A stretch of DNA of 64,000 bases from Alphaproteobacteria bacterium (GCA_045577985.1 JAZNJJ010000026.1:19403-83402); one strand, 5' to 3'; positions 18,359 through 33,290 are shown, numbered from the stretch's first letter. Notes: generated by a model not told the origin, from the sequence alone. Translations and numbers: made by a program.

Positions 18359-21300
18359 ATGGCAAAATTTCAGAAGTTTGTTGCAACATTTGTTGCGTTA
18401 GTAGGTATCGTTCTGTTCGGCTCATGCACAGCTGATGGTTTTGAAGATACTCGTTCGTATCCTACTCATGTGGATACAATTAAGATCGTGAAAGACCATG
18501 TTATGGTTAATGACCTCACCCATGACATCGATACGGCTTTAACAGATAAGGCCAGCGATGAAATGGAAGCTAAAATGAGAATCTACAATATCCTTGACGG
18601 AGAAGTTGTTGATTCTTTTAGTATGACCGAATATCCGACTATGGATACTCACATATACTGCCTGAAGGATAATTATGTCATTACTGAAGAGCAGATTGAG
18701 CCGGTATTGGTTTCTTCTGAACTTAGAAGAAATTATAATCGTGATCATGTGAGTTATAACGGATATGAAGAAAAAGATACTTTAATTCTGTCGTTTAACG
18801 ATGGACAGGTTGTTTCTGTTCCGGTGATTATTTATGCATTTTCAGCTGAAGTTAAAGATGATGTATGCCATTTTGGTTCAGACTCATTGATTAGTGCTAA
18901 GCTGACAAAAGTGCAAAATATTAACACCTCTAAGAACACGACTAGAGCAACTTATGTTTCAAGTGTCTTAACAACTGAGTATTCTGTAGAATTGACATTT
19001 GCAGAAAAAAACACCAAGAGAGATTCTATTTTTAATGTAAATCTTAAGACTTATGTTAATCGTAAGGTTCTCTCTGAAGATGCGATTGATAAAGTTGAAG
19101 TAATTAACAAAAATCGTAAGGTTATTGATGAAACAACTGAGCAAATCTCTTTTGATAAAATGTATACCATGAAGAGTGGTGAAGTTATCAAAGAACCATT
19201 CTCTCGCATTTTGAAAAGAGAATTTAAGGGTATAGCTCCTTATGAGAAATACGTTTCTTCATTTGATTATGCCTTTGATAAATCTAATGGTGTTGTTGTT
19301 AGCGGAAATGAAAATAGTGTCGAAAAGGAAGGTAACTGGAATGTATTCGGTAAAACTGATAAATATTCAGCAAATATTTCTAATGGAATAGAGGCTGAAC
19401 TTATTGTTACAGATTATTCTCTTTATCACGAGAGAGCCGTTTACAGAGATTCTCATGTAGAAGTTGCTTTTGGATATGAAAATGTTGAAGCTACAGAAAT
19501 AGCTAGCAATGTTTCTGCCAAAGGTTCTGATAAAGAAGGTTTTGATAAGGCCGTTCTCAACAATGAGATCAGGACTCTATATCTCGGATATACTCAAAAT
19601 TTGATGGAAGATGTATATCTTTATCAAACTGCAACGAGTATTCAGGGATATGACTTGGAAAATCCTAAACTTCAGATTCTAGATGATAAGGTTATTGCCT
19701 CAATCGATTTTGTTATCAATTATACTGATGGCAAAGACGTGAGAGAAACCGACAAAATAGAACTTCCGCGTTCTATTTCTTGCCTGACAGATTGGACTTG
19801 TATTGAAGCAAATTCAAACCAGAAGACAGATACAGCTATTGTTGTTATATCTGCTTCTAATCAAAAGAGTGAAGGTTTTTGGTCTTATAAAAATCAGACC
19901 AGAAATGTTTCAACTTTAGCTCATTTGAATTCTTCTAAACAAACCAATAAATGGTCTGTGGTTGTACCAAACGAAATTGTTTATTCTCGAGAAGGAAAAA
20001 CATATAATTTTGGAGAAATAGAATTTTTTGCAGATGAAAATGGTGCCGACGTTGTCTTCGTAAAAGAAGAAAATGGACTTTCTGTTTACAAATATACCGA
20101 TAAGTTGAATGTTATTTATGGTGAAAATACTGTGAATACATCTGCTCCAGGTACAATAAAAGTTGACGGAAAGGGTATTAAGAGTAATAGCTATAAAGAC
20201 AAGAAGATCGTTGTTAATTCAAATAACGTGATTGCTTCTCTGACATGGATTACTACTTATAATGACGGCACAGAAAAGACAGAAAGTGTTAGCAAAACAT
20301 TTCCTCGTGAACTTGTTTGCAACACAAACTGGAACTCTAAAGAAGCTAATGCAAATCAGACTACTGGTAATACAAATGTATCGATAGTTAAATCTGAGCC
20401 TGTTGTAGATGGTAATTGGGTATTCATAAAAGAAACCCGTTCAATTTCAACAACAGCAAAATTGGCTTCCTCTTCTCAGGCAAATGAGTGGACTTCTATT
20501 GATCCTAACAGCATTGTTTATACTCAAAATGGTGTAACTGTTGATTTTGGAACTTTAGATTTTTCAGCTACAAAGTCTGATGCTAAGACAACACTTGAAA
20601 GCACTGTTAAAAATGTTGAGACATATAGTTACGTTTGTACTATTAATGTAGCTTTCGGTTCTAACAGTCTTAACAGTTCGGCTCCCGGTACAATTATCGT
20701 AGAAAAAGCTCGTGAAGTTGTAGATCATGAAATTCGTGATCCAAAGCTTGTTGTTAACAGTGAAGATGTTACTGCTACATTAACATGGGCAACTATCTAT
20801 AATGATGGTACTGAAGAAACAGAATCTGTGAAGCAGAGTTTTGCAAGAAGTCTTGAAGTGTATACTAACTGGTCTTCAAAGGAAAACAATGCAACTCAAA
20901 CAACAGAATCTGCCAACACATCTTTGTTGAGTTCTAACAGTAAGAAGGAAGGTTTCTTCACTTATGTAAATGAAACCAGACAGATTACTACTCTTGTAAA
21001 TTTGGCCAGCTCTACTCAGAAAAATGGCTGGAACTCTATTGATCCAAATAGCATAGTTTATTCTCGTGAGGGTAAAACTTTTGCATTTGATAAAATTGAG
21101 TTTAGCGCATCTGAGGCAGGAGCAAACGTTAAGTTGAAAAATGAGACAGCTAATAGCTCGACTTATTCTTATACAGATAAGATAAACGTTGTTTACGGTG
21201 GCAACACTAAAAATTCAACGGCAACAGGAGAGATTATTGTGGATGTTGTTGTTTCTGGTTATGATATAACAAATCCTCAGCTTATCATTAATAACGATAA

Positions 21301-22240
21301 CGTTATCGCTAAACTGAACTGGATTACTAAGTATTCTAATGGTTCAGAAACTAGCGAGGCTATAACTAAAACTTTCACTCGCTCCTTTAATTGTTATACA
21401 AACTGGAGCTCTAAAGAAGCTAATGGCAATCAAAACACTGGTTCTGCTACGGTAAGCGTTTTGAATACTAAAGCAGAAAAAGATGGGTATTGGTCTTGGA
21501 ACGTTGAAACTCGCGATATTAAAACTATTGCAAATCTCAACTCTTCCAATCAAACCAACGGATGGAAATCTATTGATCCGAACTCAATAATCTTTACACG
21601 TGAGGGTAAAACTTATGATTTTGGAAAAGTTGATTTCAATGCTATTGAGAATGGTGCAACTACCAGTATTAAATCAGAAGATGATATGGTAATCGTATAT
21701 AATTATACTGATGTTATCAACGTAAGTTTCGGTAGCAACACATTTAATAGTTCTGCTACGGGAACAATTAATGTTGAGAAGCCATGGAATCCTGATTTTC
21801 CTGCAGATTGGGGTAAGTTTGTTAAGGCTACAGCAACTGTTTCATGTAATGAAGATGTAAAAGACTGGATTTATACATGGTCATTACATTTTGAAAATGG
21901 AACTCTTCCTGTAGTGGTTAGACGTAATGCAAATGAGCCAGAAATAAACACAAATTACTTTGAGGCCATAACTGATAGTCGTTTTAATGGCGGTTCGTAT
22001 GTTAATGGCAAGTGGGTAAATTCTATTGCTTCAGATGAAAGCAACTTTATGTTGTGGACATCTCATGAAGATAAGGTGTTTAGAATGTTTACATATCCTA
22101 CAGCAACAGCTTGGAAATGGAACAATGGCAAGAATACTGTCTATACCGACGAATTTAACTTTGAACTGAAAAATGACGGCAAGGTATTAGTCATTACAAA
22201 AAATGGTAATGAATTTGCTCGTTATAAGGCTGGTAAATAA
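18359..22240 (+). CDS. 1293-aa surface lipoprotein with four tandem modules of about 180 aa (function unknown)
   Basis: Signal peptide ending LFGSC (lipobox) followed by acidic residues (CTADGFED). N/S/T-rich beta-type sequence. Internal repeats span aa 430-1143. No Shine-Dalgarno-like purine run before the ATG. Confidence 0.7.
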   Translation: MAKFQKFVATFVALVGIVLFGSCTADGFEDTRSYPTHVDTIKIVKDHVMVNDLTHDIDTALTDKASDEMEAKMRIYNILDGEVVDSFSMTEYPTMDTHIYCLKDNYVITEEQIEPVLVSSELRRNYNRDHVSYNGYEEKDTLILSFNDGQVVSVPVIIYAFSAEVKDDVCHFGSDSLISAKLTKVQNINTSKNTTRATYVSSVLTTEYSVELTFAEKNTKRDSIFNVNLKTYVNRKVLSEDAIDKVEVINKNRKVIDETTEQISFDKMYTMKSGEVIKEPFSRILKREFKGIAPYEKYVSSFDYAFDKSNGVVVSGNENSVEKEGNWNVFGKTDKYSANISNGIEAELIVTDYSLYHERAVYRDSHVEVAFGYENVEATEIASNVSAKGSDKEGFDKAVLNNEIRTLYLGYTQNLMEDVYLYQTATSIQGYDLENPKLQILDDKVIASIDFVINYTDGKDVRETDKIELPRSISCLTDWTCIEANSNQKTDTAIVVISASNQKSEGFWSYKNQTRNVSTLAHLNSSKQTNKWSVVVPNEIVYSREGKTYNFGEIEFFADENGADVVFVKEENGLSVYKYTDKLNVIYGENTVNTSAPGTIKVDGKGIKSNSYKDKKIVVNSNNVIASLTWITTYNDGTEKTESVSKTFPRELVCNTNWNSKEANANQTTGNTNVSIVKSEPVVDGNWVFIKETRSISTTAKLASSSQANEWTSIDPNSIVYTQNGVTVDFGTLDFSATKSDAKTTLESTVKNVETYSYVCTINVAFGSNSLNSSAPGTIIVEKAREVVDHEIRDPKLVVNSEDVTATLTWATIYNDGTEETESVKQSFARSLEVYTNWSSKENNATQTTESANTSLLSSNSKKEGFFTYVNETRQITTLVNLASSTQKNGWNSIDPNSIVYSREGKTFAFDKIEFSASEAGANVKLKNETANSSTYSYTDKINVVYGGNTKNSTATGEIIVDVVVSGYDITNPQLIINNDNVIAKLNWITKYSNGSETSEAITKTFTRSFNCYTNWSSKEANGNQNTGSATVSVLNTKAEKDGYWSWNVETRDIKTIANLNSSNQTNGWKSIDPNSIIFTREGKTYDFGKVDFNAIENGATTSIKSEDDMVIVYNYTDVINVSFGSNTFNSSATGTINVEKPWNPDFPADWGKFVKATATVSCNEDVKDWIYTWSLHFENGTLPVVVRRNANEPEINTNYFEAITDSRFNGGSYVNGKWVNSIASDESNFMLWTSHEDKVFRMFTYPTATAWKWNNGKNTVYTDEFNFELKNDGKVLVITKNGNEFARYKAGK
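19646..21787 (+). repeat. four tandem coding repeats (units start at 19646, 20189, 20726 and 21257; 177-181 aa each)
   Basis: Recurring blocks N.V(I/T)A.L(T/N)W(I/A)T.YNDG(T/S)E..E...K.F.R......TNW(S/N)SKEAN..Q.T ... IDPNSI(V/I)Y(S/T)REGKT..F ... Y.YTD.INV.(Y/F)G.N..NS(S/T)A.G.I.V. Confidence 0.85.
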
Positions 22241-22262
22241 ATACCAATGATCAACTTTCTAA

Positions 22263-22289
22263 CAGCACCTCATTTGAGGTGCTGTTTTT
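22263..22289 (+). terminator. rho-independent terminator of the 1293-aa gene
   Basis: CAGCACCTCAtttGAGGTGCTG followed by TTTTT. Confidence 0.8.
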
Positions 22290-22308: not shown

Positions 22309-22340
22309 TGTCCGAAAAAAGGGTTCCTTTTTTTCGGACA
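22309..22340. repeat. 32-nt palindrome A1 (TGTCCGAAAAAAGGGTTCCTTTTTTTCGGACA), followed by T8
   Basis: Read directly. Hairpin plus T-run has the form of an intrinsic terminator. Confidence 0.9.
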
Positions 22341-22413
22341 TTTTTTTTATTAAAAAATCTTTCTCTCACAACGTAACATCAATAGGTTAAATTTTTCTAA
22401 ATTTGAAATTTCA

Positions 22414-22445
22414 TGTCCGAAAAAAAGGAACCCTTTTTTCGGACA
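22414..22445. repeat. 32-nt palindrome B1, the exact reverse complement of A1
   Basis: TGTCCGAAAAAAAGGAACCCTTTTTTCGGACA. Ends 5 nt before the SD of the pilin-like gene. Confidence 0.9.
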
Positions 22446-22463: not shown

Positions 22464-23096
22464 ATGACAAATAGTAATCAATCTGGTCGTTCTATGATTG
22501 AAATGTTAGGTGTTTTGGCGATTATCGGCGTATTATCTGTCGGAGGAATTGCCGGATACTCTAAAGCGATGATGAAATTCAGAATCAATAAAACTATTGA
22601 TCAAGTTTCACAAATTGCACAAAATATTAGAATTTTATATGCCAGACAGAAAAATTACGGTAGTTTGAGTGCAAAAATAGTATATAAAGCAAATTTGGCA
22701 CCAAGAGAAATGTTTGAAGATGGTTCTGGTAGTTATGGCATGACTAATGCTTTTGGTGGTAGAGTTGGATTTGAAACAGCATCAAAAAGAGCTTCTCAAG
22801 ATAGTAAAGCTTTTGTTATTTCATTATATGATCTACCGGAAGAAGCGTGTATTGAACTGGCTACGCAAGATTGGGGTGGTGGCGAAGCTTCCGGTTTAAT
22901 TTCTGTAGGGATTGATACAAATTCTCGTCCTATATCTACGAGAGAAAACTGTGCAGGTGAAAGCGGTAGTGGTTATGCTATTGCTTGTGCAGGTGGTTCT
23001 GATGTTCCAGTTCCAATGCCAATAGATGTGGCTGTTGATGCTTGTAGTAATATTACAGGGTCCTCAATGGGGCGTTTAACATTCAAATTCTACTAA
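22464..23096 (+). CDS. type IV pilin-like protein, paralog P1 (atypical class III signal peptide)
   Basis: ORF 22413..23096 trimmed to MTNSNQSG|RSMIEMLGVLAIIGVLSVGG (8-aa leader ending in Gly, Glu at +5, 20-residue hydrophobic helix). C-terminal Cys pair (EEACIELATQDWG ... DVAVDACS). Confidence 0.7.
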   Translation: MTNSNQSGRSMIEMLGVLAIIGVLSVGGIAGYSKAMMKFRINKTIDQVSQIAQNIRILYARQKNYGSLSAKIVYKANLAPREMFEDGSGSYGMTNAFGGRVGFETASKRASQDSKAFVISLYDLPEEACIELATQDWGGGEASGLISVGIDTNSRPISTRENCAGESGSGYAIACAGGSDVPVPMPIDVAVDACSNITGSSMGRLTFKFY

Positions 23097-23120
23097 TCTT
23101 AAAAATTCTTTCTTCTACAC

Positions 23121-23157
23121 AAAAAAAGACTTAGTCATTAAAAACTAAGTCTTTTTC
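23121..23157. terminator. bidirectional terminator between P1 and the convergent 189-aa gene
   Basis: AGACTTAGTcattaaaaACTAAGTCT flanked by A7 and T5. Confidence 0.75.
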
Positions 23158-23161
23158 AATC

Positions 23162-23731
23162 TTAATCAAGGCTAATCATTAGGCGTACATTCTGTTTCAT
23201 GTCTGCCATACCGTGAAAATTTCCACAACCGCAGTTCATCATGTACGTAAGAGCATCATTTTCTCCTTCAGGACCTAGAGCCCAGTATGCACATCCCCAC
23301 TCATCAGCTTCAATATTATATTCGTTTAATATTTCAACTGTTTTGTTGAATAAATTTCGGCGAATATATGCTTCATCAAAATGATTATCCCATGGAATTA
23401 TTTGCTTCTTTCCGCAAACTAATGGACGAAGACTTTCGAGCCGTACTGCTTCGATGAAAGTCCGAGGATTTTCCTCTGTCTTTTTAAAAACAATATTACC
23501 GGTTTGAATTCCCCAAATTTCCGCCTTGCGCCTAATGTCAAGATATGGAAAAATCTCTAAATTATCCCCCTTGACGTAAGCAATTGGACATGGTGTCAAA
23601 ATACATTCTTTGGGTAAATTTTTTCTTTCTTCTTTAGATAAAGAACAAGAAAAAAATTTGTCTGCCATTTCTCGCGTAAACTCGAGTTCATCAAGCATTG
23701 CGAATAACTTCTTTTCGTTCATAATAATCAA
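23162..23731 (-). CDS. hypothetical cytoplasmic protein
   Basis: 189-aa ORF, Cys-rich C-terminus (WGCAYWALG...MMNCGCGNFHG). No family recognised with confidence. Confidence 0.45.
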   Translation of the reverse strand: MIIMNEKKLFAMLDELEFTREMADKFFSCSLSKEERKNLPKECILTPCPIAYVKGDNLEIFPYLDIRRKAEIWGIQTGNIVFKKTEENPRTFIEAVRLESLRPLVCGKKQIIPWDNHFDEAYIRRNLFNKTVEILNEYNIEADEWGCAYWALGPEGENDALTYMMNCGCGNFHGMADMKQNVRLMISLD

Positions 23732-23808
23732 TTTTTAAACAACAAAATAATTATATATCAAGATAGGTGTATATCACTTCAGTATAGAATTGTCAATAAC
23801 TTCAACTT

Positions 23809-24945
23809 CTACTGAAATAAATCCTTTATTTTATCAAAAAATCCTTTTATTTCCGGTTGGCAAGTATCGTCTTTATTTTCAGCTCTGAACGCTTCCATAA
23901 GCTCTTTCTGTTTAGCGTTTAATTTTGTTGGAATAATAACTTTCACGCTTACATATAAATCTCCTCGGCGTTCTGAGTCGTATAAATGCATTCCCTCTCC
24001 TTTTACTTTAATCAGAGAATCATTTTGTGTACCTGATGGAATTTCTACTTTAACCGTTTTTCCATCAATACCCGGAATTTCAACTGAACCACCTAAAATT
24101 GCACAACTTACAGATATTGGAACAGCTGTATATAAATCATTTCCATTGCGTTCATAGAGTTTATGAGGTTCTACAATAATACCCACATACAAATCTCCAT
24201 TTTCTCCGCCGTGTAGGCCAGCCATTCCCTCACCTGCAACACGGATACGCATATTTGATTCAATGCCCGCTTTGATTTTTATTTTGAGTTTTTTATTTAT
24301 TTTTGTTTGCCCCGCTCCATGACATTCAGAACAAACGTCTTTTATAACACGACCTTTTCCTCGACAGTTTGGACATGTCGTTTCAAAAACAAAAAATCCA
24401 CCTTGCTGAGTTCTTACCTTTCCGCTTCCATTACATGTTGGGCAAACCTCAGGCTCTTTACCGTTTTTTGTTCCGTGACCATGACATTTTTCGCAAGCTT
24501 GAGTAGTTGGAATGACAATCTCTTCTTCAGTACCATTGAAAGCCTTCTCTAAAGTAATATTAAGATTATATCTTAAATCACTTCCTCGTTGCTGATATGA
24601 ACGTTGTCGTCCAGATGATCCCCCCATAAACTCTGAGAATATATCGTTAAATACATCAGCAAATCCACCACCAGCAAAATCAAAACCTCCAAATGGATTA
24701 CCTCCGCCCATACCTCCATTAGCAAAAGCGTTCTTGCCGTATCTATCATATGCAGCACGTTTTTGTTCATCTTTAAGTACTTCATAAGCTTCGTTTATAG
24801 CTTTGAACTTTTGTTCAGCTTCTTTGTTATCCGGATTTCTATCTGGATGATATTTCATTGCTTGTTTTCTAAAAGCTTTTTTTATTTCATCTTGACTTGC
24901 CGAACGGCTTACTTCTAATAAATCATAGTATTCAGTATCACTCAT
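23809..24945 (-). CDS. dnaJ: molecular chaperone DnaJ
   Basis: J domain with HPD (YHPDRNP), a G/F-rich region, four CxxCxGxG zinc-finger repeats and the C-terminal domains. Confidence 0.95.
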
Positions 24946-25060
24946 TTTTAGTCTCTTTATTTATGTCATGTATGTTATTTAGATTTTTTATTTCATAAAT
25001 GCAAGCACTAAAGCGCTATAATCAACGCTTTTATATGATTAAAATATTGAAAATGTTAAA

Positions 25061-25092
25061 TGTCCGAAAAAAGGGATCCCTTTTTTCGGACA
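25061..25092. repeat. 32-nt perfect palindrome A2 (TGTCCGAAAAAAGGGATCCCTTTTTTCGGACA), followed by T7
   Basis: Read directly. Confidence 0.9.
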
Positions 25093-25165
25093 TTTTTTTC
25101 ATTAAAATTTGTTCTCCTCGTAACGTAACATCAATAGGTTAAAATTTTCTGAATTTAAGATTTTG

Positions 25166-25197
25166 TGTCCGAAAAAAGGGATCCTTTTTTTCGGACA
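25166..25197. repeat. 32-nt palindrome B2 (one C-to-T difference from A2)
   Basis: TGTCCGAAAAAAGGGATCCTTTTTTTCGGACA, located just upstream of the SD. Confidence 0.9.
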
Positions 25198-25215
25198 ATA
25201 GAAAAGGAGAATATA

Positions 25216-25839
25216 ATGAAGAAAAATAACCAATCAGGTCGTTCAATGATTGAAATGCTCGGAGTTTTGGCGATTATTGGGGTATTATCTGTAGGCGGAA
25301 TTGCCGGATACTCAAAGGCGATGATGAAATATCGAATCAATAAGACGATTGATCAAATTACACAAATTTCACAAAATGTTAGAGCTTTATACGCAAGACA
25401 AAGACAAAAAAGATATCGTAATTTATATGAGGGAATTTTATATAAAGCAAATTTAGCTCCAAAGGAAATGTTTGGTTCGGGAAATATAATGACTAACGCT
25501 TGGGGGCAAAGATTTATGGTGGGGTCTGAAGGAGATGATCAAGAAAGCTTTGGTATTGCTACCCTTGTTCCTGAAGAAGCGTGTATTGAACTTGCTACAC
25601 AAGATTGGGGGAGTCGTGATACGACAGGGTTAATTGGTGTAATAGTTAGAGAGTATGATCTATCTGGTCCTAAACCCGATTTATCCACTGGTACAATAGG
25701 TAATAATTATGCTGTAGCCGTTCCCGGCGGCTCTAAAGTTTCCGTGCCTATGCCTGTTGATATAGCTGTAAATGCTTGTTCTCTTTCATCTGGTGATTAC
25801 TTTCCTGGTTATAAAGAGATTGGATGGGTGTTCCAATAA
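25216..25839 (+). CDS. type IV pilin-like protein, paralog P2, inserted between dnaJ and dnaK on the opposite strand
   Basis: ORF 25165..25839 trimmed to MKKNNQSG|RSMIEMLGVLAIIGVLSVGG. The N-terminal 60 aa are nearly identical to P1. Conserved EEACIELATQDWG and VPMPVDIAVNACS. Confidence 0.7.
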   Translation: MKKNNQSGRSMIEMLGVLAIIGVLSVGGIAGYSKAMMKYRINKTIDQITQISQNVRALYARQRQKRYRNLYEGILYKANLAPKEMFGSGNIMTNAWGQRFMVGSEGDDQESFGIATLVPEEACIELATQDWGSRDTTGLIGVIVREYDLSGPKPDLSTGTIGNNYAVAVPGGSKVSVPMPVDIAVNACSLSSGDYFPGYKEIGWVFQ

Positions 25840-25862
25840 TTAAAGAATTCTTTCTTCTATAC

Positions 25863-25893
25863 AAAAAACCTCCCATATTGGGAGGTTTTCTTT
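25863..25893. terminator. bidirectional terminator shared by P2 (+) and dnaK (-)
   Basis: CCTCCCAtatTGGGAGG flanked by A6 and a T-run. Confidence 0.75.
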
Positions 25894-25907
25894 TAAGAAT
25901 AAGTTGA

Positions 25908-27824
25908 TTATTTAACTTCTTCAAAGTCGGCATCAACAACATTATCATCTTTTGGAGCCTCTGTTGAAGAAGATGTTCCGGCATCCGCCCCATGAGGTGT
26001 TCCTTGCATACCCTCTGCTTGTTGAGATTTATACATAGCTTCACCTAATTTCATAGAAGCTTGCATTAACGCATCTGTTTTTGCTTTAATGTCTTCTAAA
26101 TTTTCTTTTTCAAGGCTTGCTTTAACATCTTCAACAGCGGTTGTAATGCTTGTTTTATCTGCTTCAGCAACTTTATCGCCAAACTCTTTTAAGTTCTTTT
26201 CAACTTCATGAATCAAACCTTCTGCACGATTTCTTGCTTCAACAAGTTCTTTCTTTTGTTTATCTGCTTCAGCATTAGCTTCTGCATCTTTTACCATTTG
26301 GTTGATTTCGGCATCACTTAAACCACCAGAAGCTTGAATGCGAATTGCTTGTTCTTTGTTTGTTGCTTTATCTTTTGCAGATACGTTAACAATACCATTA
26401 GCATCAATATCAAATGTTACTTCAATTTGAGGCATACCTCTTGGTGCAGGCGGAATACCCACTAAATCAAATTGTCCTAACAATTTGTTATGTGCGGCAA
26501 TTTCTCGCTCACCTTGGAATACTCTAATTGTTACGGCTGTTTGACCATCTTCTGCTGTTGAAAATACTTGTGATTTACGTGTTGGAATTGTGGTATTTCT
26601 ATCAATTAAACGAGTAAATACTCCGCCTAATGTTTCAATACCCAATGATAATGGTGTTACATCAAGAAGAAGAACGTCTTTAACATCTCCCATCAATACA
26701 CCACCTTGTATTGCAGCACCAACAGCAACAACTTCATCCGGATTTACACCTTTGTGTGGTTCTTTACCAAAAATTTCTTTTACTTTTTCTTGTACTTTTG
26801 GCATACGTGTCATACCACCAACCAAAATTACTTCGCTAATATCACTAGCTTTCAAACCAGCGTCAGCTAATGCTTTTTGGCATGGAATTGCTGTTTTTTC
26901 AATCAAATCTTCAACAAGTGATTCTAATTTAGCACGAGTTAATTTCATGTTTAAGTGTTTTGGACCAGAAGCATCTGCTGTTATGAATGGTAAATTGATT
27001 TCTGTTTGAGTTGTTGATGATAATTCAATCTTAGCTTTTTCTGCTGCCTCTTTCAAACGTTGCAATGCTAATCTATCACCACGTAAATCAATCCCATTTT
27101 CTTTTTGAAATTCTTCAGCTAAATAATTTACTAAGCGTTGGTCAAAATCTTCTCCTCCAAGGAATGTATCACCGTTTGTTGCTTTAACTTCAAATACACC
27201 ATCACCAATTTCTAAGATAGATACATCAAATGTACCACCACCTAAATCATATACAACTATTGTACCAGTTGCTTGCTTATCCATTCCATATGCTAAAGCG
27301 GCAGCTGTTGGCTCGTTGATAATACGTAAAACCTCTAAACCGGCAATTTTACCAGCATCTTTAGTTGCTTGACGTTGAGAATCGTTGAAATATGCAGGAA
27401 CTGTAATAACTGCTTTTTCAACCTTTTCACCTAAATAACTTTCTGCATATTCCTTGATTTTTTGTAATACAATTGCAGATATTTGTGATGGAGCATATTT
27501 TTGACCTTTTGCTTCAACCCATGCATCACCATTATCTCCTGATACAATTTTAAATGGAGAACTTTCTTTAAACTTAGAAACTTCTGCAGAATCATAACGG
27601 CGACCAATTAATCTTTTAATAGCAAATAATGTATTTTCAGGGTTTGTTACAGCTTGTCTTTTAGCTGGGTATCCAACTAAACGCTCAGTATCTGTAAATG
27701 CTACCATTGACGGGGTTGTTCTGGCACCTTCTGAGTTTTCTAACACTTTTGCATCTTTACCATCCATTACTGAAAAGCAAGAGTTTGTTGTACCCAAATC
27801 GATACCAATTACTTTATTACTCAT
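25908..27824 (-). CDS. dnaK: molecular chaperone DnaK (Hsp70)
   Basis: 638 aa, with canonical Hsp70 motifs ([29 protein letters not shown]). Confidence 0.97.
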
Positions 27825-27858
27825 ATTAAATTTCCTCCTATTTTAATTCTAAAGATGT

Positions 27859-27887
27859 ATATAGGGAGTAAATTTTATGTATGCAAG
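27859..27887 (-). promoter_or_regulatory. candidate sigma-32 (RpoH) type promoter of dnaK
   Basis: Minus strand reads CTTGCA-N15-CCCTATAT, against the E. coli sigma-32 consensus CTTGAA-N13-17-CCCCATnT. About 35 nt upstream of the dnaK ATG. Confidence 0.5.
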
Positions 27888-27925
27888 ATGTTAAATGATT
27901 TTTTTATAATTTTTTTAATATTTAT

Positions 27926-29413
27926 TTATTCAACACTTATTGTATAGCCGTTTTGACGTTCCATTAAATTACATGCTATTTCAAAATCATTGGCATTGCA
28001 TGAATATATTGTATATAAAACATCTCCACTTTTTACATAATCACCAACTTTTTTATGTAAGTCTATTCCTGAACCTAAATATTGTGTTGCACCGGCATAA
28101 ACTCCGATTTTATTAATAATGACATTATTAATCGCTTCAACAACTCCATCAAATGCAGAAACAACCTCGCGAGAATATTTTCCCAATTTGGGAACTTTTT
28201 TTAATCCTTGTGTATTTACAATTTGTTGAAAACTTTCTAAAGCTCTGCCACTTTCTAAAAGTTCTTTGGCTACAGCGTAACCTTTACCACCTCTTAATTG
28301 AGGATCAAATTCTAAGACCCTACCCGCTAAGAATAAAGATTTTTCTTTTAGATCTTGTGGGGCATCCTTATAATTTCTCAGAACTTTCATAACATCTCGG
28401 GCTTCTAAAACTGCGCCTATTCCGTTTCCTATTGGCTCACTACCATCAGTTATAACTGCATCAATTTCAATACCCAGCATATCACCGACATATTCTATTT
28501 GCTTGCGAATTCGCATTGCCTCATTGGTACTATGAATACGAGCCTTCTCTCCTACAGGGATATCCAAAACTAAGTGAGTTATTCCCATTGACATCATCAT
28601 TGATAATATGGATGCTATGACAAATTCGTTTTGATCTATTCCTAATTGACGACGAACATCATGTAATAATCGATTGGCTCTAGATATATAAAGAGCATCA
28701 TAACATACAATAGCTCCATTATTTGTGCGTAAGTGTTTTTGAAATTCGTTATCTTTAAGGTTTATTTCAGCCATACAACCTATTGTATCAGCAACACCTG
28801 CACATGATGTCAAAGAGTGAATACACGGTTTTGCTATGGGTAGTCCGTATGCAGCAACAATGGCCAAAACAATTAAATCTGTTTTATTGCCGGGTATTCC
28901 ACCTAAACAATGGTGATCAACTACTATACTTTTTTCATCCCAATGTAAAACCTTATTGCCAACTAATGCTTCTGTTAAAGAAACTAATTCAGAAGCACTC
29001 ATAAATGATGAACAAGCAACTAAAAAGGCTGCGATATCCATTTTTGAATATCTGCCTGAAGATATATCTTGCATAATATCTACATATTCAGATGATGTTA
29101 ATATATCTCCATTTATTTTGCGCTTTATGGCGTTTATACTTGGAGATGGGGATGATAAGCTTACACTTACCTCTATTCCTTCTGGCAAACCAAGTGCTGA
29201 AAATGCTTCATCATTTAATGCTATCTCATCTAGACCAACAATGCTCTCATCTTCAACAATTTGCAAAAAAGCATATACTGTTTTATTTTCACCTTGAATT
29301 TCAAGTTTGGTTATTTTGTTGATGTCATCAAGTTTATAAACTGTACAATTTTTGTTTATAATTGCAAAATTTTCACCAAACGATTTTAAAGATAAATGTT
29401 TTAGTTTGAGCAT
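27926..29413 (-). CDS. thymidine phosphorylase family protein (long ~500-aa form with N-terminal extra domain)
   Basis: Helical-bundle domain (LTSSEY..IMQDISSGRYSKMDIAAFLVA), an alpha/beta domain (DHHCLGGIPGNKT) and a PYNP C-terminal domain (VGDYVKSGDVLYTIYS). 14-nt gap after pilin-like P4. Confidence 0.7.
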   Translation of the reverse strand: MLKLKHLSLKSFGENFAIINKNCTVYKLDDINKITKLEIQGENKTVYAFLQIVEDESIVGLDEIALNDEAFSALGLPEGIEVSVSLSSPSPSINAIKRKINGDILTSSEYVDIMQDISSGRYSKMDIAAFLVACSSFMSASELVSLTEALVGNKVLHWDEKSIVVDHHCLGGIPGNKTDLIVLAIVAAYGLPIAKPCIHSLTSCAGVADTIGCMAEINLKDNEFQKHLRTNNGAIVCYDALYISRANRLLHDVRRQLGIDQNEFVIASILSMMMSMGITHLVLDIPVGEKARIHSTNEAMRIRKQIEYVGDMLGIEIDAVITDGSEPIGNGIGAVLEARDVMKVLRNYKDAPQDLKEKSLFLAGRVLEFDPQLRGGKGYAVAKELLESGRALESFQQIVNTQGLKKVPKLGKYSREVVSAFDGVVEAINNVIINKIGVYAGATQYLGSGIDLHKKVGDYVKSGDVLYTIYSCNANDFEIACNLMERQNGYTISVE

Positions 29414-29427
29414 TGTTATCTATACCA

Positions 29428-30051
29428 TTATCTAAATGACATTATTATTGTATTTGTATTACCACATGTATCTGTAGCAGTTCCTATACCCATAGGAGCT
29501 GGGTTTGTTGAATGCCCTGCTACAGCTAAATTAGCGGACAGTGAAGTGTTTAATCCAGATTGGATTGCACTATCAACTGAGGTTGGAGCATCCATATTAA
29601 CTGCTATGCCTCTAAAACCACTTGATGATGGACCACCCCAATTATTTGTAGCTATCTGCATACAAATATCTGTGCTTACATTTTCTAATTTTATTGAAAA
29701 TAAAACTCTTGGAGAACCAATGTAATAGATTGAATAATCAACATCTCCTGCACCAGTAAAACTAATGTTATCAGGATTAGATTCATCTTCGGTATATAAA
29801 AATGTGTCAGGTACAGCTTTAGCTTTTTTTACATAAGAATTAATTTGTGCTCCAGATGTTCCTTCATAATCTCTAGCAACAGTACGGACTTTACTGGCAA
29901 GTGTTGATACCTCATCCAATACTTCATTGATAGTGCTACTTGTTTGCATTTTATTTACTAAATTAAAACCACCAACAGATAATATTCCAACAATAGCCAG
30001 TACACCAAGCATCTCTATCATTGATCTACCTCTTTGGTAAAAATTTTTCAT
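29428..30051 (-). CDS. type IV pilin-like protein, paralog P4
   Basis: MKNFYQRG|RSMIEMLGVLAIVGILSVGG. Conserved C...IATNNWGG...SGF.GIAV and a C-terminal Cys. SD AAGGAG upstream. Confidence 0.7.
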   Translation of the reverse strand: MKNFYQRGRSMIEMLGVLAIVGILSVGGFNLVNKMQTSSTINEVLDEVSTLASKVRTVARDYEGTSGAQINSYVKKAKAVPDTFLYTEDESNPDNISFTGAGDVDYSIYYIGSPRVLFSIKLENVSTDICMQIATNNWGGPSSSGFRGIAVNMDAPTSVDSAIQSGLNTSLSANLAVAGHSTNPAPMGIGTATDTCGNTNTIIMSFR

Positions 30052-30078
30052 TTATTTTCTCCTTATTTTATATGTATT

Positions 30079-30678
30079 TTATTTACAACCTTTATACCAT
30101 AACTGAATAGTGTTATTTGAACCATTAGTACAATTTTCAACCGCTTTATCAACTGACATCGGATAATTTGATGAAAGAGAACTTACAGCAAAATCTTTGT
30201 CGGCACAATCACTTGTACAACTTTTAAAATATGAACCAACATCACTGTTGCCAATTGCAACACCTATCATTCCAGATGTTCGTCCTGTTCCCCAATCTGC
30301 GGTAGCTAATTTGATGCAACTGTCGTCAGAAAGATTGCTAATATTGATATTGAAATAGTCATTATCTCCATTAATCTGATATATTGAATCCATTATTCCA
30401 ACATATGTATTTGAACCGGAATCATAATATAAATTTGTTGGATAAGCATTTGACTTATACAAAAACAATGTATATGTTCTATAAGCTTTTTCATATTTGC
30501 AAGCAAACTTTTTTGCATATCTTGCTAAATCTGCTGTATCAGATAAAAGTTGTGCTTCGCGATGAGTTTGCATTGCTTTACCTATTATACCAAAACCACC
30601 AACAGAGAGTACTCCGACTATTGCTAAAACACTTATTGTTTCTAGCATTGTCCGACCAAGTTCACTTATTTTGAGCAT
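30079..30678 (-). CDS. type IV pilin-like protein, paralog P3
   Basis: MLKISELG|RTMLETISVLAIVGVLSVGG. Conserved DDSCIKLATADWGTGRTSGMIGVAI and a C-terminal Cys. SD GGAG upstream. Confidence 0.7.
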   Translation of the reverse strand: MLKISELGRTMLETISVLAIVGVLSVGGFGIIGKAMQTHREAQLLSDTADLARYAKKFACKYEKAYRTYTLFLYKSNAYPTNLYYDSGSNTYVGIMDSIYQINGDNDYFNINISNLSDDSCIKLATADWGTGRTSGMIGVAIGNSDVGSYFKSCTSDCADKDFAVSSLSSNYPMSVDKAVENCTNGSNNTIQLWYKGCK

Positions 30679-30734: not shown

Positions 30735-33290
30735 TTATTTTCGTTCTTCAGGTTTCATTGCTTCAGGAGCTTTCTGAATTTTCTTAATTTGCTCAGTGAC
30801 TGGCTTATATACAGTTTGTTGCCATGGACTTTCTTCAACATATTCATGCCCACAAATACTGATACCAAGACTACGTAATGCTGTTTCAGTTGGGATAAAC
30901 ATATCTAATCCATCATCTGTTTTTGTGCCAGAATGAGCCATACCATTTATTGTACAATCTTTGTAAATTAAAGCTCCGCCAACTGTAACATTTTGAATGA
31001 ATGTGTTAGCCAGTATTTCTGCTCCTTTATCTTCTGTATATCGATATCCTTCAATTCGAGCACTATTTTCTAAATAGTCTTCGCCATTTTTAAAGTCAGA
31101 TACATCTAATAGACCTACAGTTAAGAACCCACTTTTACCAACTTCTGGTAAGCTTAAGTTAAGAGCAAGAGGAGTATATTCTGTGCTTTTATCAAGCATG
31201 AACAAAGCTGTATTTTTGCTCGGATTAATGCGTACGGCACGAGCCTTTAATTCGTCATTACGAATTGTTTTAATATCATAACTGTTGTTTTCTTTATCTA
31301 CTAAATCTCCTGCAGTTAAAACGAATCTATCTGAGATTAATAGTCCTGCACCTTTTCTTCCATTTGGACTGGTTATTTGAACTATTGATGAACGCATACG
31401 ATGTATGGTTTCAGGTGTTAATGCTTTGCATGGATCTGTTTCTACTACACAGAAATTATCTAAGCTTTTTGCATCTCCTGTTTCAACCCATGTATCGTCG
31501 ACAACTTGGCACATTCCATCGTCTTTCACGTTACCATTTTCATCTATACAAGAATTTATGATATCAAAACTGCTGTATACATTTCCGTCTTCGAAGATAA
31601 CATCACATCCTTCTGAAACAACCAGACCATCTGATATTACTCCGCCAGAATCTAATACGACATCGCAAACTTCTTCATTTATAACAATTCCATCGCTGTT
31701 TACACCACCCTCAATAGTAATACCATCAGCTTTAACTCCACCATCTGCAACAATGGCATCGCAAGTTTCTTTGGTGAGAATTATTCCATCAGCCACAACA
31801 CCGCCTTTTGCTAATATATTATCACAAACCTCTTCAGTGATCGTAATTCCATCAGCAGTTACTCCGCCTTTCGCAACTATAGCATCACAGGTTTCTTCTG
31901 TAAGGATGATTCCATCAGCTACAACCCCACCTTTATTTGTTATATTATCACAAACTTCTTCCGTAATAATAATTCCGTCAGCATTTGTTCCGCCACTAGA
32001 AACAATTGTGTTGCAAATTTCTTCTTTGATAGAGAAACCATTTCCGTTAACTCCACCATCTTCATAAATCTCAACAACTGGAATAGCTGAGGTTGTTGGC
32101 GGACAGCTACAAGTACAAACACCATCTTCATGGAAAACTGTTACAGGTTCAGGTATAACAGGTGTAACAGGAACTGTTTCGGCAATAGGAGTAAATTGAA
32201 CAGCTTGTTCACAAGTTTGTGGACATACGCAAGGAGGACATGGACGACATTTAGAAATATCTGCTCCTGGACGACCTAACTCACAATCTTTGGCTTGATC
32301 ATATTCTTTTCTAAATCCACATTTTAATGGATTTAAGGCTCTTTCTTCTTCAATTAATGCATTACGTTGCATTGCCATCTCTGTAGGGCTTATACGTTGC
32401 ATTAATCTATCTTCAAAACCAGGTAGATTGCGTAAATTACTTGTTGCATCAGCAAATGCACGTTCAATTAATTTAACTTCACCATTTATTTCCCCGTTGT
32501 ATAATTCTCCATAACCAACACTTTCACCTTTCCAATATACTTTATTTTTTGTTAAATCCATTAAACGCCAGGTGATAGTTATTTCTGAAGAACCACTTCT
32601 AATATCTTCTTTTTTAGCTTCATCCCAATTATATTCATCACAAATATTCATAAAATAATCGGTAATCTCTGCCGTTAAAACATATTCAGGAAGCTCTGAA
32701 GGAACTTCTTCTAAACACAAATCTTGAGGCATTGGCAAAACCTTATAACAATCACCAACTACTTCTTCAAATACTGTATTAAAGGCAATATTTTTTTCCA
32801 TAATACGCCCCTTATTCAATACAGCTTCCTTATCAAAACGGCGGCAACCGAAAATACGGAATCGATAATTTCCTAATTTATTGGTATAAGGAGAATCTAA
32901 TTCACTATCTTTTATTCTAAAGTCTACATGAGATAAAGTAATTGGAGCCATTTGACAACAATTACGTTCTACCGCCTCAGCAACAACAGGATTATATGGA
33001 ACATAGTTTTTAACTTTTACACGCTCTACGCATTTTTTGCAGGTACCAGGGAAAAGACTGCCGTCTTTTGTGCAACGAACACATGGGCCTCCAGGAAAAA
33101 GACTTCCATCTTTATCTGTTGAACAATTAGGACAAATTCCTCCCGGAAATAAACTTCCATCCTTATTTAATCGCACATTTTGAGGAACGTTATTTTCATT
33201 ACCATATCCGGCAACAACTGTGCCGGCAGTAAGAATACTAAATCCTAATACAGCGGATAATATATATAACAATTTGTTATGTTTATTCAT
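30735..33290 (-). CDS. 851-aa secreted Cys-rich repeat protein with a C-terminal degenerate trypsin-like domain
   Basis: Signal peptide; 3x KDGSLFPGG-C..C (aa 43-83); Cys/Pro-rich linker (CRPCPPCVCPQTC); about seven 21-aa repeats GGV.ADGI.(I/L)TEE.CD.I..K (aa 412-570); C-terminal GAGLLISDRFVLTAGDLV ... NTALFMLD ... VTVGGALIY, which resembles a chymotrypsin-fold domain with all three triad positions replaced. Confidence 0.7.
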   Translation of the reverse strand: MNKHNKLLYILSAVLGFSILTAGTVVAGYGNENNVPQNVRLNKDGSLFPGGICPNCSTDKDGSLFPGGPCVRCTKDGSLFPGTCKKCVERVKVKNYVPYNPVVAEAVERNCCQMAPITLSHVDFRIKDSELDSPYTNKLGNYRFRIFGCRRFDKEAVLNKGRIMEKNIAFNTVFEEVVGDCYKVLPMPQDLCLEEVPSELPEYVLTAEITDYFMNICDEYNWDEAKKEDIRSGSSEITITWRLMDLTKNKVYWKGESVGYGELYNGEINGEVKLIERAFADATSNLRNLPGFEDRLMQRISPTEMAMQRNALIEEERALNPLKCGFRKEYDQAKDCELGRPGADISKCRPCPPCVCPQTCEQAVQFTPIAETVPVTPVIPEPVTVFHEDGVCTCSCPPTTSAIPVVEIYEDGGVNGNGFSIKEEICNTIVSSGGTNADGIIITEEVCDNITNKGGVVADGIILTEETCDAIVAKGGVTADGITITEEVCDNILAKGGVVADGIILTKETCDAIVADGGVKADGITIEGGVNSDGIVINEEVCDVVLDSGGVISDGLVVSEGCDVIFEDGNVYSSFDIINSCIDENGNVKDDGMCQVVDDTWVETGDAKSLDNFCVVETDPCKALTPETIHRMRSSIVQITSPNGRKGAGLLISDRFVLTAGDLVDKENNSYDIKTIRNDELKARAVRINPSKNTALFMLDKSTEYTPLALNLSLPEVGKSGFLTVGLLDVSDFKNGEDYLENSARIEGYRYTEDKGAEILANTFIQNVTVGGALIYKDCTINGMAHSGTKTDDGLDMFIPTETALRSLGISICGHEYVEESPWQQTVYKPVTEQIKKIQKAPEAMKPEERK
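31581..32057 (-). repeat. about seven tandem 63-nt (21-aa) coding repeats inside the 851-aa gene
   Basis: GGVVADGIILTEETCDAIVAK / GGVTADGITITEEVCDNILAK and similar units. They also produce a long antisense shadow ORF (31405..32067). Confidence 0.85.

What the first reader, a model, noticed from the sequence alone, without database searches (positions are those of the whole stretch)
22464..30678. Four paralogous type IV pilin-like proteins with a non-canonical G|R-[ST]-M-[IL]-E processing motif and no assembly genes nearby
P1 (22464-23096), P2 (25216-25839), P3 (30079-30678) and P4 (29428-30051) share these features:
- an 8-residue leader ending in Gly;
- R-(S/T)-M-(I/L)-E, which places Glu at +5;
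- a hydrophobic helix of about 20 residues ending VGG;
- a conserved Cys pair bracketing a C-terminal region, with motif C(I/M)(E/K/Q)(L/I)AT..WG.....G..G(V/I).

The canonical prepilin motif, as I recall it, is G-[FYLIVM]-[ST]-[LT]-[LIVP]-E. Arg at +1 and Met at +3 are both outside that pattern.

No prepilin peptidase, PilB/PilT/GspE ATPase, platform protein or secretin is present in the 64 kb. This looks like a distinct subfamily of pilin or pseudopilin-like proteins whose processing enzyme and filament machinery are unknown from this window.
Basis: partly seen in the sequence, partly recalled or inferred. Interest (0 to 1): 0.6.

Follow-up and report, generated by a model that had tools for sequence, protein, structure and literature searches.

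The report
Arg-first type IVb pilin gene family
The four genes encode real pilus subunits of a very large, undescribed branch of type IVb pilins whose mature protein begins with arginine; this 1.5-Mb gut alphaproteobacterium carries about 45 scattered copies that must all feed one pilus machine encoded elsewhere in the genome.

Summary
All four ORFs exist and share Gly-1, Arg+1, Glu+5, a hydrophobic helix and a conserved Cys pair.

They are type IVb pilins. P1 and P2 pass the Pfam PilS and Bundlin cut-offs. AlphaFold models of P1 and P4 match only CofA, TcpA and Salmonella PilS among solved structures.

The window holds no assembly genes, but the genome does: one R64-like type IVb cluster and one prepilin peptidase without a methyltransferase domain.

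The four genes belong to a family of at least 44 loci in this genome, all with Arg+1. The family was found in 151 of 151 sampled genomes of the order, at 2 to over 100 copies each.

P1 and P2 are typical copies. Each sits behind a roughly 105-bp inverted-repeat switch, and their alleles are replaced between strains. P3 and P4 are a conserved, switch-less, fast-evolving tandem pair.

Arg+1 falls outside the PROSITE-style and PilFind motifs but meets the structural definition of a class III signal peptide.

Earlier notes of this scan reported the same family and switch on other pieces of this genome.

Verdict: a new variant of a known kind.

The parts
22464..23096 (+). P1, a 210-aa type IVb pilin of the multi-copy core class (leader MTNSNQSG, mature N-terminus RSMIEML)
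   Evidence: Pfam PilS 1.1e-11 and Bundlin 9.6e-11. AF2 pLDDT 84.7. The 13 Foldseek PDB hits with E <= 0.001 are all type IVb pilins.
25216..25839 (+). P2, a 207-aa type IVb pilin of the core class, lying between dnaJ and dnaK on the opposite strand
   Evidence: Pfam PilS 3e-10 and Bundlin 6.4e-9. Identity to P1 is 89% over the first 55 mature residues and 45% over the rest.
30079..30678 (-). P3, a 199-aa divergent pilin (G|RTMLETI), first gene of a conserved switch-less tandem pair
   Evidence: Matches family members at E 1e-22 to 1e-25. Single-copy orthologue next to a P4 orthologue across the genus.
29428..30051 (-). P4, a 207-aa divergent pilin (G|RSMIEML), second gene of the pair
   Evidence: AF2 pLDDT 78.5. 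The top four Foldseek hits are CofA and Salmonella PilS. Orthologues found in 36 of 40 genus genomes.
22310..22444 (.). P1 upstream switch: 30-bp near-palindromic repeats at 22310-22339 and 22415-22444, exact reverse complements of each other, flanking a 75-bp spacer. Repeat spacing is 105 bp.
   Evidence: The same module precedes 30 family genes in the genome, 26 in this orientation and 4 flipped.
25062..25196 (.). P2 upstream switch: repeats at 25062-25091 and 25167-25196 with a 75-bp spacer, in the same orientation as P1
   Evidence: Several metagenome contigs of this locus break at the proximal repeat.
30735..33290 (-). 851-aa Cys-rich secreted protein directly upstream of P3-P4. Context only; it is always adjacent to the pair in the genus.
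   Evidence: Its C-terminal ~250-310 residues are 73-82% identical in nine other genus genomes, next to pilins that are only 28-48% identical. Only a weak Trypsin_2 hit.

Best explanation
**What they are.** All four genes encode type IVb pilins, the subunits of a type IV pilus.

**Processing and assembly (inferred from homology).**
- Each precursor inserts into the inner membrane through its hydrophobic helix.
- The genome's single A24 prepilin peptidase cuts it after Gly-1. This enzyme has a peptidase domain only.
- The mature protein therefore starts with an unmethylated Arg1 and keeps Glu5.
- The subunit is polymerised by the genome's single R64-like type IVb machine. That machine consists of a TcpQ-domain lipoprotein, a PilN-type secretin, PilO, PilP, an assembly ATPase and a platform protein, with a PilT-like ATPase next to them.

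**Two classes among the four.**
- P1 and P2 are two of about 37 interchangeable major-pilin genes. About 30 of these have a complete copy of a small invertible DNA segment (two 30-bp inverted repeats 105-106 bp apart) in front of them.
- Together these genes form a phase-variable, antigenically diverse pilin repertoire.
- In this assembly P1 and P2 are in the majority orientation, which I take to be OFF. This is inferred and unproven.
- P3 and P4 are a conserved tandem pair without a switch, transcribed with their neighbours. They are most likely constitutive pilins, either minor or default subunits.

**Arg+1.** It is a selected, clade-defining feature. I infer that its fixed positive charge stands in for the usual N-terminal chemistry, either in membrane topology or in pairing with Glu5.
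For: **Fold and family.**
- Pfam PilS and Bundlin hits are above cut-off for P1 and P2.
- A profile of the family hits BfpA (4e-10), TcpA, Salmonella PilS and CofA among PDB sequences, with the Glu5 register preserved.
- AF2 models have a ~50-residue N-terminal helix plus a beta-sheet.
- The significant Foldseek matches are all type IVb pilins.

**Machine.**
- One A24 peptidase.
- One T2SSF platform gene.
- A cluster in the gene order TcpQ-domain protein, secretin, PAP_PilO, PilP-like, T2SSE, T2SSF.
- The secretin matches TIGR02520, PilN family type IVB, at 1.9e-79.

**No N-methyltransferase domain.**
- PF06750 was not found in this genome or in 4 other Arg+1 genomes from 4 other families.
- It was found in 5 of 5 relatives with Phe+1 pilins.
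- In the order, only 1 of 81 genomes had a hit, and that was a partial match.

**Selection on Arg+1.**
- All 44 loci have it.
- It is encoded by CGT (28), AGA (4) and CGA (2).
- Over Gly-1 to +29, third codon positions are 63% identical and first plus second positions are 97% identical.

**Repertoire and switch.**
- 30 loci carry the complete switch, 26 in one orientation and 4 in the other.
- At locus C28_144456, seven metagenome contigs that are 97% identical carry the repeat-spacer-repeat segment inverted.
- In contigs with an identical DnaJ, the pilin at the P1 locus is 100% or 60% identical to P1 and the pilin at the P2 locus is 57% identical to P2. One of these contigs (L078) matches the window at 99.5%.

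**P3-P4.** The synteny is conserved in the genus, with pilins 28-48% identical between neighbours that are 66-82% identical.
Against: - There is no direct evidence of cleavage, assembly or expression.
- No sigma-70 consensus promoter was found in the switch in either orientation, so ON and OFF cannot be assigned.
- At the P1 and P2 loci themselves, every contig recovered had the same orientation as the window. Inversion is shown for a sister locus, not for these two.
- P3 and P4 score below the Pfam PilS cut-off.
- Leaders of 7-12 residues are shorter than those I recall for classical type IVb pilins.
- Other presumed substrates in these genomes have G, N, Y, S or A at +1, so the peptidase does not need Arg.
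Confidence: 0.72

Rival explanations
1. Neisseria-like cassette model. Most copies are donor cassettes, and variation arises mainly by recombination into a few expressed loci, not by switching each gene on and off.
For: Strains with an identical DnaJ carry entirely different pilin alleles (57-60% identity) at the same two loci, so alleles are replaced by recombination. The N-terminal 55 residues are conserved and could serve as a recombination anchor.
Against: Every copy is a full-length ORF with its own start codon, ribosome-binding site and signal peptide. Third codon positions of the conserved 5' region are only 63% identical, so there has been no recent homogenisation by gene conversion. 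Inversion of the switch is seen directly at one locus.
Confidence: 0.12
2. The proteins form a periplasmic pseudopilus for protein secretion or DNA uptake and are not a surface adhesive pilus. P3 and P4 lie two genes from comM.
For: ComM (Mg_chelatase-type) lies two genes upstream of P3. As I recall, type IVb systems such as TCP also export proteins. Some homologues score weakly against pseudopilin models.
Against: The best structural and sequence matches are major pilins of surface type IVb pili. The machine is of the PilN/PilO/TcpQ type IVb kind and has a PilT-like ATPase beside it. Strain-level hypervariability and per-gene switches fit an exposed antigen better than a periplasmic piston.
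Confidence: 0.1
3. The N-termini are ordinary Sec signal-anchor sequences, and the proteins are not processed by a prepilin peptidase.
For: Arg+1 lies outside every sequence rule for prepilin cleavage sites. Pfam N_methyl scores are below cut-off.
Against: There is no lipobox. The hydrophobic segment is modelled as the first half of one continuous 50-residue helix, as in pilins. Gly-1 and Glu5 are invariant in 81 sequences. An intact A24 peptidase is present; the two catalytic Asp motifs, EID...LPD and GGGDIKL, are read by eye from the printed sequence. A matching machine is also encoded.
Confidence: 0.04

Closest known systems
Type IVb major pilins: bundlin BfpA (PDB 1zwt; Pfam PF05307), TcpA (8uhf, 3hrv), CofA (9iuf, 3s0t) and Salmonella Typhi PilS (3fhu, 1q5f; Pfam PF08805)
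   Same: Same fold, with TM-scores of 0.5-0.69. Mature size of about 190-200 residues. A non-Phe residue at +1, a conserved Glu5, and a C-terminal Cys pair.
   Different: Arg at +1 and Met at +3. Leaders are short (7-12 residues). There are dozens of scattered gene copies instead of one gene inside the assembly operon. Sequence identity to solved structures is only 14-18%.
IncI1 plasmid R64 thin pilus (pilL to pilV) with the Rci shufflon
   Same: The chromosomal machine has the same gene order and families: TcpQ-domain lipoprotein, PilN-family secretin, PilO, PilP-like protein, ATPase, platform protein. Variation is produced by site-specific DNA inversion.
   Different: In R64, as I recall, inversion shuffles the C-terminal exons of the tip adhesin PilV. 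Here, small switches sit in front of about 30 separate major-pilin genes. The machine is chromosomal and was found in every sampled genome of the order.
Multi-locus invertible promoters of gut Bacteroides (capsule and fimbrial loci)
   Same: Many dispersed loci share one inverted-repeat design. Mixed orientations occur within one genome, and the organism lives in the gut.
   Different: The invertible unit is much smaller (75-76 bp between 30-bp repeats). It controls single pilin genes, not operons. No promoter could be recognised in it, and the recombinase is not identified; three small serine and four tyrosine recombinase genes are candidates.
Neisseria pilE/pilS antigenic variation and Moraxella Piv pilin inversion
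   Same: The N-terminus of the pilin is constant and the exposed C-terminal part is hypervariable. The repertoire is stored as many gene copies.
   Different: The copies here are complete, individually translatable genes, not promoterless silent cassettes, and the DNA inversion lies upstream of the coding sequence.

Membership tests
Type IV pilin (class III signal peptide, as defined in PMC4471445) | Hydrophilic leader of 6-26 residues ending in Gly | tested here: met
   The four genes have 8-residue leaders. Family leaders are 7-12 residues and all end in Gly.
Type IV pilin (class III signal peptide, as defined in PMC4471445) | Glu at +5 within a tract of about 21 mainly hydrophobic residues | tested here: met
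   E13 (P1 numbering) is invariant in 81 sequences and is followed by MLGVLAIIGVLSVGG. Its register against TcpA Glu5 is confirmed.
Type IV pilin (class III signal peptide) | Sequence rules for the cleavage site: the PilFind motif [GAS]-[ACFGILMNPQSTVWY]4-[DE], and the PROSITE-style G-[FYLIVM]-[ST]-[LT]-[LIVP]-E (the latter from memory) | tested here: not met
   Arg at +1 is excluded by both rules, and Met at +3 by the second (sequence; PilFind rule read).
Type IV pilin (class III signal peptide) | Curated HMM cut-offs: Pfam N_methyl PF07963 (21.2 bits) and TIGR02532 (16.3 bits) | tested here: inconclusive
   PF07963 scores are 17.4-18.5 bits for P1, P2 and P4, with no hit for P3. TIGR02532 scores are P4 17.0, P2 16.3, P1 16.2 and P3 11.5.
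Type IV pilin (class III signal peptide) | Cleavage after Gly-1 by an A24 prepilin peptidase | not testable with these tools
   One A24 peptidase gene with both Asp motifs is present. No biochemical data are available.
Type IVb pilin subclass | Type IVb globular fold: long alpha-1 helix, beta-sheet and a disulfide-bounded D-region | tested here: met
   For the P1 and P4 models, every significant PDB match is CofA, TcpA or Salmonella PilS. C129 and C194 are invariant.
Type IVb pilin subclass | Pfam PilS (PF08805) or Bundlin (PF05307) above the gathering score | tested here: met
   P1 scores 45.4 and 42.6 bits and P2 scores 40.7 and 36.6 bits, against cut-offs of about 22. P3 (15.5) and P4 (17.7) are below cut-off.
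Type IVb pilin subclass | Long leader peptide (about 15-30 residues, from memory) | tested here: not met
   Leaders are 7-12 residues.
Type IVb pilin subclass | Assembly by a type IVb machine (PilN/BfpB-type lipoprotein secretin, PilO, TcpQ-like protein) | tested here: met
   The genes are present in the same genome on contig C3. Their use by these pilins is inferred from there being only one platform gene.
N-methylated pilins (substrates of bifunctional PilD) | Prepilin peptidase carrying the N-terminal A24_N_bact methyltransferase domain (PF06750) | tested here: not met
   No PF06750 match in this genome or in 4 other Arg+1 genomes. It is present in 5 of 5 Phe+1 relatives. In the order, 1 of 81 genomes has a hit, and only a partial one.

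The most novel reading that the evidence does not exclude
This is a previously unrecognised pilin system. A fixed Arg1 side chain, paired with a peptidase-only processing enzyme, replaces N-methylation as the partner of Glu5 or as the topology signal. A single type IVb machine is fed from the largest known phase-variable pilin library: about 45 genes here and over 100 in sister genomes of 1.5 Mb, most behind their own ~105-bp inverton. The library lets an uncultured gut symbiont change its pilus surface cell by cell.
Probability: 0.35. Interest if true: 0.75.

Novelty: new variant of a known kind. Interest (0 to 1): 0.62.

Why it matters
- **Detection gap.** Motif-based pilin finders exclude charged residues at +1, so this family is missed or left as 'hypothetical'. 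It is nevertheless very large: 5,569 representatives at 50% identity with E <= 0.001, and it was present in every sampled genome of a whole order of gut alphaproteobacteria.
- **A natural experiment on residue 1.** The family bears on what the first residue of a pilin, and its methylation, are for.
- **Genome investment.** With about 45 pilin genes, about 30 of them behind a complete switch, roughly 2% of a 1.5-Mb genome is devoted to varying one surface filament. This points to strong pressure from host immunity, phages or grazers on an uncultured lineage.
- **Assembly quality.** The repeated N-terminus and switch are where MAG assemblies of these organisms break.

Tried and rejected
**Could not be done**

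**Gave no result**
- Promoter assignment: the consensus scan found no sigma-70 promoter in either orientation. It found only terminator-like hairpins at the distal repeat, and my inspection by eye was inconclusive.
- Exact-protein look-up of the 189-aa neighbour of P1 found nothing. DnaJ worked instead.
- Literature search for the N-terminal string returned no papers. General searches found no description of this family.

**Rejected or left open**
- T2SS pseudopilin reading: rejected, because NCBIfam pseudopilin hits are far below cut-off.
- Lipoprotein or Sec signal: rejected, because there is no lipobox and the hydrophobic segment is modelled as part of one continuous helix.
- The 181-aa ORF at the pilS position of the machine cluster as the 'true' major pilin: left open. 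Its similarity to the family is weak (hhalign probability 35%) and it lacks Gly-1 and Glu5.
- Testing whether the P2 module is a recent insertion between dnaK and dnaJ: dnaK and dnaJ are adjacent in two other genera, but a same-genus genome has a gap of similar size without a detectable pilin, so the result is unclear.


Full report
**1. Observation**

The four ORFs are present as described. Each short start codon follows a GGAG-type ribosome-binding site. The longer ORFs listed mechanically for P1 and P2 begin inside an upstream palindrome.

All four proteins read leader-Gly | Arg-(Ser/Thr)-Met-(Ile/Leu)-Glu, followed by a hydrophobic helix ending in VGG. In an 81-sequence alignment the invariant residues (P1 numbering) are G8, R9, M11, E13, G27, G28, C129, W137, G138, G144 and C194.

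None of the genome's matches to Peptidase_A24, T2SSE, T2SSF or Secretin lies in the window. The matches are on contigs C1, C3, C5 and C25, and the window is C26:19403-83402.

**2. What the proteins are**

- P1 and P2 pass the Pfam cut-offs for PilS (PF08805) and Bundlin (PF05307). P3 and P4 score below them.
- The general prepilin models are borderline. N_methyl scores are below cut-off, and TIGR02532 scores sit at the cut-off.
- A profile of the family finds only type IVb pilins among PDB sequences: BfpA at 4e-10, TcpA at 2.6e-5, Salmonella PilS at 5e-5 and CofA at 1e-3. The TcpA alignment places the family's Glu on Glu5, which fixes Arg as residue +1.
- The AlphaFold model of P1 (pLDDT 84.7) has a helix over residues 9-58 and a beta-sheet domain. 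All 13 Foldseek matches with E <= 0.001 are CofA, TcpA or Salmonella PilS.
- The model of the divergent P4 (pLDDT 78.5) gives the same result.
- P3 matches P1 at E 1.6e-22 and other family members at E down to about 1e-25. P4 matches P1 at E 6e-24.

**3. The machinery exists elsewhere in the genome**

The assembly is 1.54 Mb, 40 contigs, 99% complete and about 32% G+C.

- It has one A24 peptidase (237 aa, C1:16605-17318, next to groES-groEL). By eye, both Asp motifs (EID...LPD and GGGDIKL) are present. It has no other Pfam domain.
- Contig C3 carries, in this order, a TcpQ-domain lipoprotein, a secretin, a PAP_PilO protein, a PilP-like protein, a T2SSE ATPase and a T2SSF platform protein. A PilT-like ATPase lies alongside.
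- The secretin is closest to TIGR02520, 'PilN family type IVB' (1.9e-79).
- This is the gene order of the R64 thin-pilus locus, as I recall it.
- Only one platform gene is present. I infer that all the pilins must use this one machine.

**4. Family size and Arg+1**

A six-frame scan finds 44 loci with G|R[ST][ML][ILMV]E (41 complete, 3 cut by contig ends), plus several C-terminal fragments at contig starts. Every locus has Arg at +1.

Evidence that Arg+1 is selected at the protein level:
- Arg is encoded by CGT (28), AGA (4) and CGA (2).
- Over Gly-1 to +29, third codon positions are 63% identical and first plus second positions are 97% identical.
- The conservation is therefore selection on the protein, not recent gene conversion.

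Distribution in public data and genomes:
- Public data hold at least 7,948 relatives at 90% clustering.
- There are 5,569 representatives at 50% identity with E <= 0.001.
- 112 of the best 120 hits and 141 of 150 representatives begin GRSM(I/V)EM. The rest are truncated or mis-started gene calls, except one representative with a spurious pattern match (GSLINEN).
- The family is in 151 of 151 sampled genomes of the order, covering 20 genera. Most carry 2-10 copies, with expansions to 38-235 first-look candidates in five genera.
- It is in 37 of 251 sampled genomes of the class.

Limits on what Arg+1 means:
- Strong hits in ten GTDB families keep the Arg+1 N-terminus. Weaker hits in fourteen other families have F, L, V, I or M at +1. 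Arg+1 therefore marks a clade.
- The peptidase does not require Arg. Second-class pilins in the same genomes have N, Y, S or A at +1.
- The only other class III candidate in this genome is a ~1240-aa PilV-like protein, which reads G|GLMIE.

The A24_N_bact domain (PF06750) shows a matching pattern:
- It is absent from this genome and from four Arg+1 genomes of other families.
- It is present in 5 of 5 relatives with Phe+1 pilins.
- It is essentially absent from the order, where 1 partial hit was found in 81 genomes.

This domain is held to carry out N-methylation (PMC4471445), so Arg1 is probably not methylated. In known filaments Glu5 pairs with the N-terminal amine of a neighbouring subunit (PMC10191384). 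Whether the Arg side chain takes part in that pairing is my inference.

The motif lies outside the PilFind rule, which allows no charged residue at +1 to +4 (PMC3244431).

**5. Two classes among the four genes**

*P1 and P2.*
- They are 89% identical over the first 55 mature residues and 45% identical beyond.
- Each is preceded by the same module: a 30-bp near-palindrome, a 75-bp spacer, the reverse-complement palindrome, a ribosome-binding site and the ATG.
- Thirty loci carry the complete module with a repeat spacing of 105-106 bp. Twenty-six are in the orientation of P1 and P2 and four are flipped.
- At one flipped locus (C28_144456), seven metagenome contigs that are 97% identical over 2.2 kb carry the 137-bp segment in the opposite orientation. 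The segment therefore inverts.
- At the P1 and P2 loci, all recovered contigs share the window's orientation.
- In those contigs, which encode an identical DnaJ, the P1-locus pilin is either identical to P1 or only 60% identical. The P2-locus pilin is 57% identical to P2. This shows allele replacement in a constant chromosomal frame.

*P3 and P4.*
- They have no switch.
- They form a tandem pair found once per genome in 35-36 of 40 genus genomes, beside the same 851-aa Cys-rich protein in the nine of ten loci whose flank was recovered, and usually beside the thymidine-phosphorylase-family gene.
- The neighbours are 66-82% identical, while P3 and P4 are 28-48% identical. The pair is fast-evolving but positionally fixed.

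**6. Mechanism and limits**

- Shown by computation: fold, family, genomic machinery, copy number, selection on Arg+1, inversion at a sister locus, and allele turnover.
- Inferred: cleavage after Gly, lack of methylation, use of the C3 machine, ON/OFF control, the majority orientation being OFF, and the roles of P3 and P4.
- No promoter was recognisable in the switch.
- Candidate recombinases are three small serine and four tyrosine recombinase genes.

**7. Novelty**

No paper contains the N-terminal string, and my other searches found no description of the family. NCBI labels a few members 'type 4 pilus major pilin' and most 'hypothetical'.

Earlier notes of this scan described the same family, the Arg+1 feature and the switch on other pieces of this genome. 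I re-derived each point independently here.

I class this as a new variant of a known kind.

Noticed in passing
window 23809-27824: The P2 module (switch plus pilin, + strand) lies between dnaK and dnaJ (both - strand), splitting the usual dnaKJ pair. In two other genera of the family the two genes are 109-176 nt apart (L122, L145). A same-genus genome (L119) has a gap of similar size with no detectable pilin.
   Followed up: partly
window 22377-22389 and 25129-25141: Close to the centre of each 75-bp spacer is cATCAATAGGTTA, which fits the IHF consensus WATCAANNNNTTR (from memory) except at the first base. The core is the most conserved part of all three spacer classes. It could be a bending site that lets repeats only 105 bp apart meet.
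   Followed up: no
G000 C3:89671-90216 (-), outside the window: A 181-aa ORF sits at the 'pilS' position at the end of the assembly cluster. It is weakly pilin-like (hhalign probability 35%, E 4e-4) and ends ...VMWTFQ like family members, but lacks Gly-1 and Glu5. It may be a Glu5-less initiator or cap subunit, or a decayed pilin.
   Followed up: partly
window 18359-22240 (+): A 1293-aa predicted lipoprotein (signal ...LFGSC) built of about four long internal repeats, with no Pfam match, lies directly upstream of the P1 switch and ends in a strong terminator hairpin at 22261-22286.
   Followed up: no
window 30735-33290 (-): An 851-aa Cys-rich secreted protein with DGSLFPG and GGVxADGIxxTEExCD repeats and a weak trypsin-like C-terminal domain. 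In the nine loci of other genus genomes whose flank was recovered it is adjacent to P3-P4, and its C-terminal part is 73-82% identical.
   Followed up: partly
L097, L098 (G278, a 1.1-Mb genome of another family): At least 12 ORFs of 360-800 aa start with the same GRSMVEMLGVLAI N-terminus. These are modular pilins with large C-terminal domains in a different lineage.
   Followed up: no
G000 contig ends (C8:31, C13:18508, C26:65, C3:169955, C17:16333, C28:198736) and L079-L086: Contigs of this genome, and of metagenome assemblies of the same species, often end in the conserved pilin N-terminus or at the switch repeats. Public gene calls sometimes start at Met+3 ('MIEMLGV...').
   Followed up: partly
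G000 C28:47718-48143, C28:69531-69953, C29:39890-40291: Three small serine-recombinase genes (open frames of 194-237 aa). Two are on the contig that carries ten pilin loci, and one lies 2.5 kb upstream of pilin C28_50612. They are candidate invertases for the switches.
   Followed up: no
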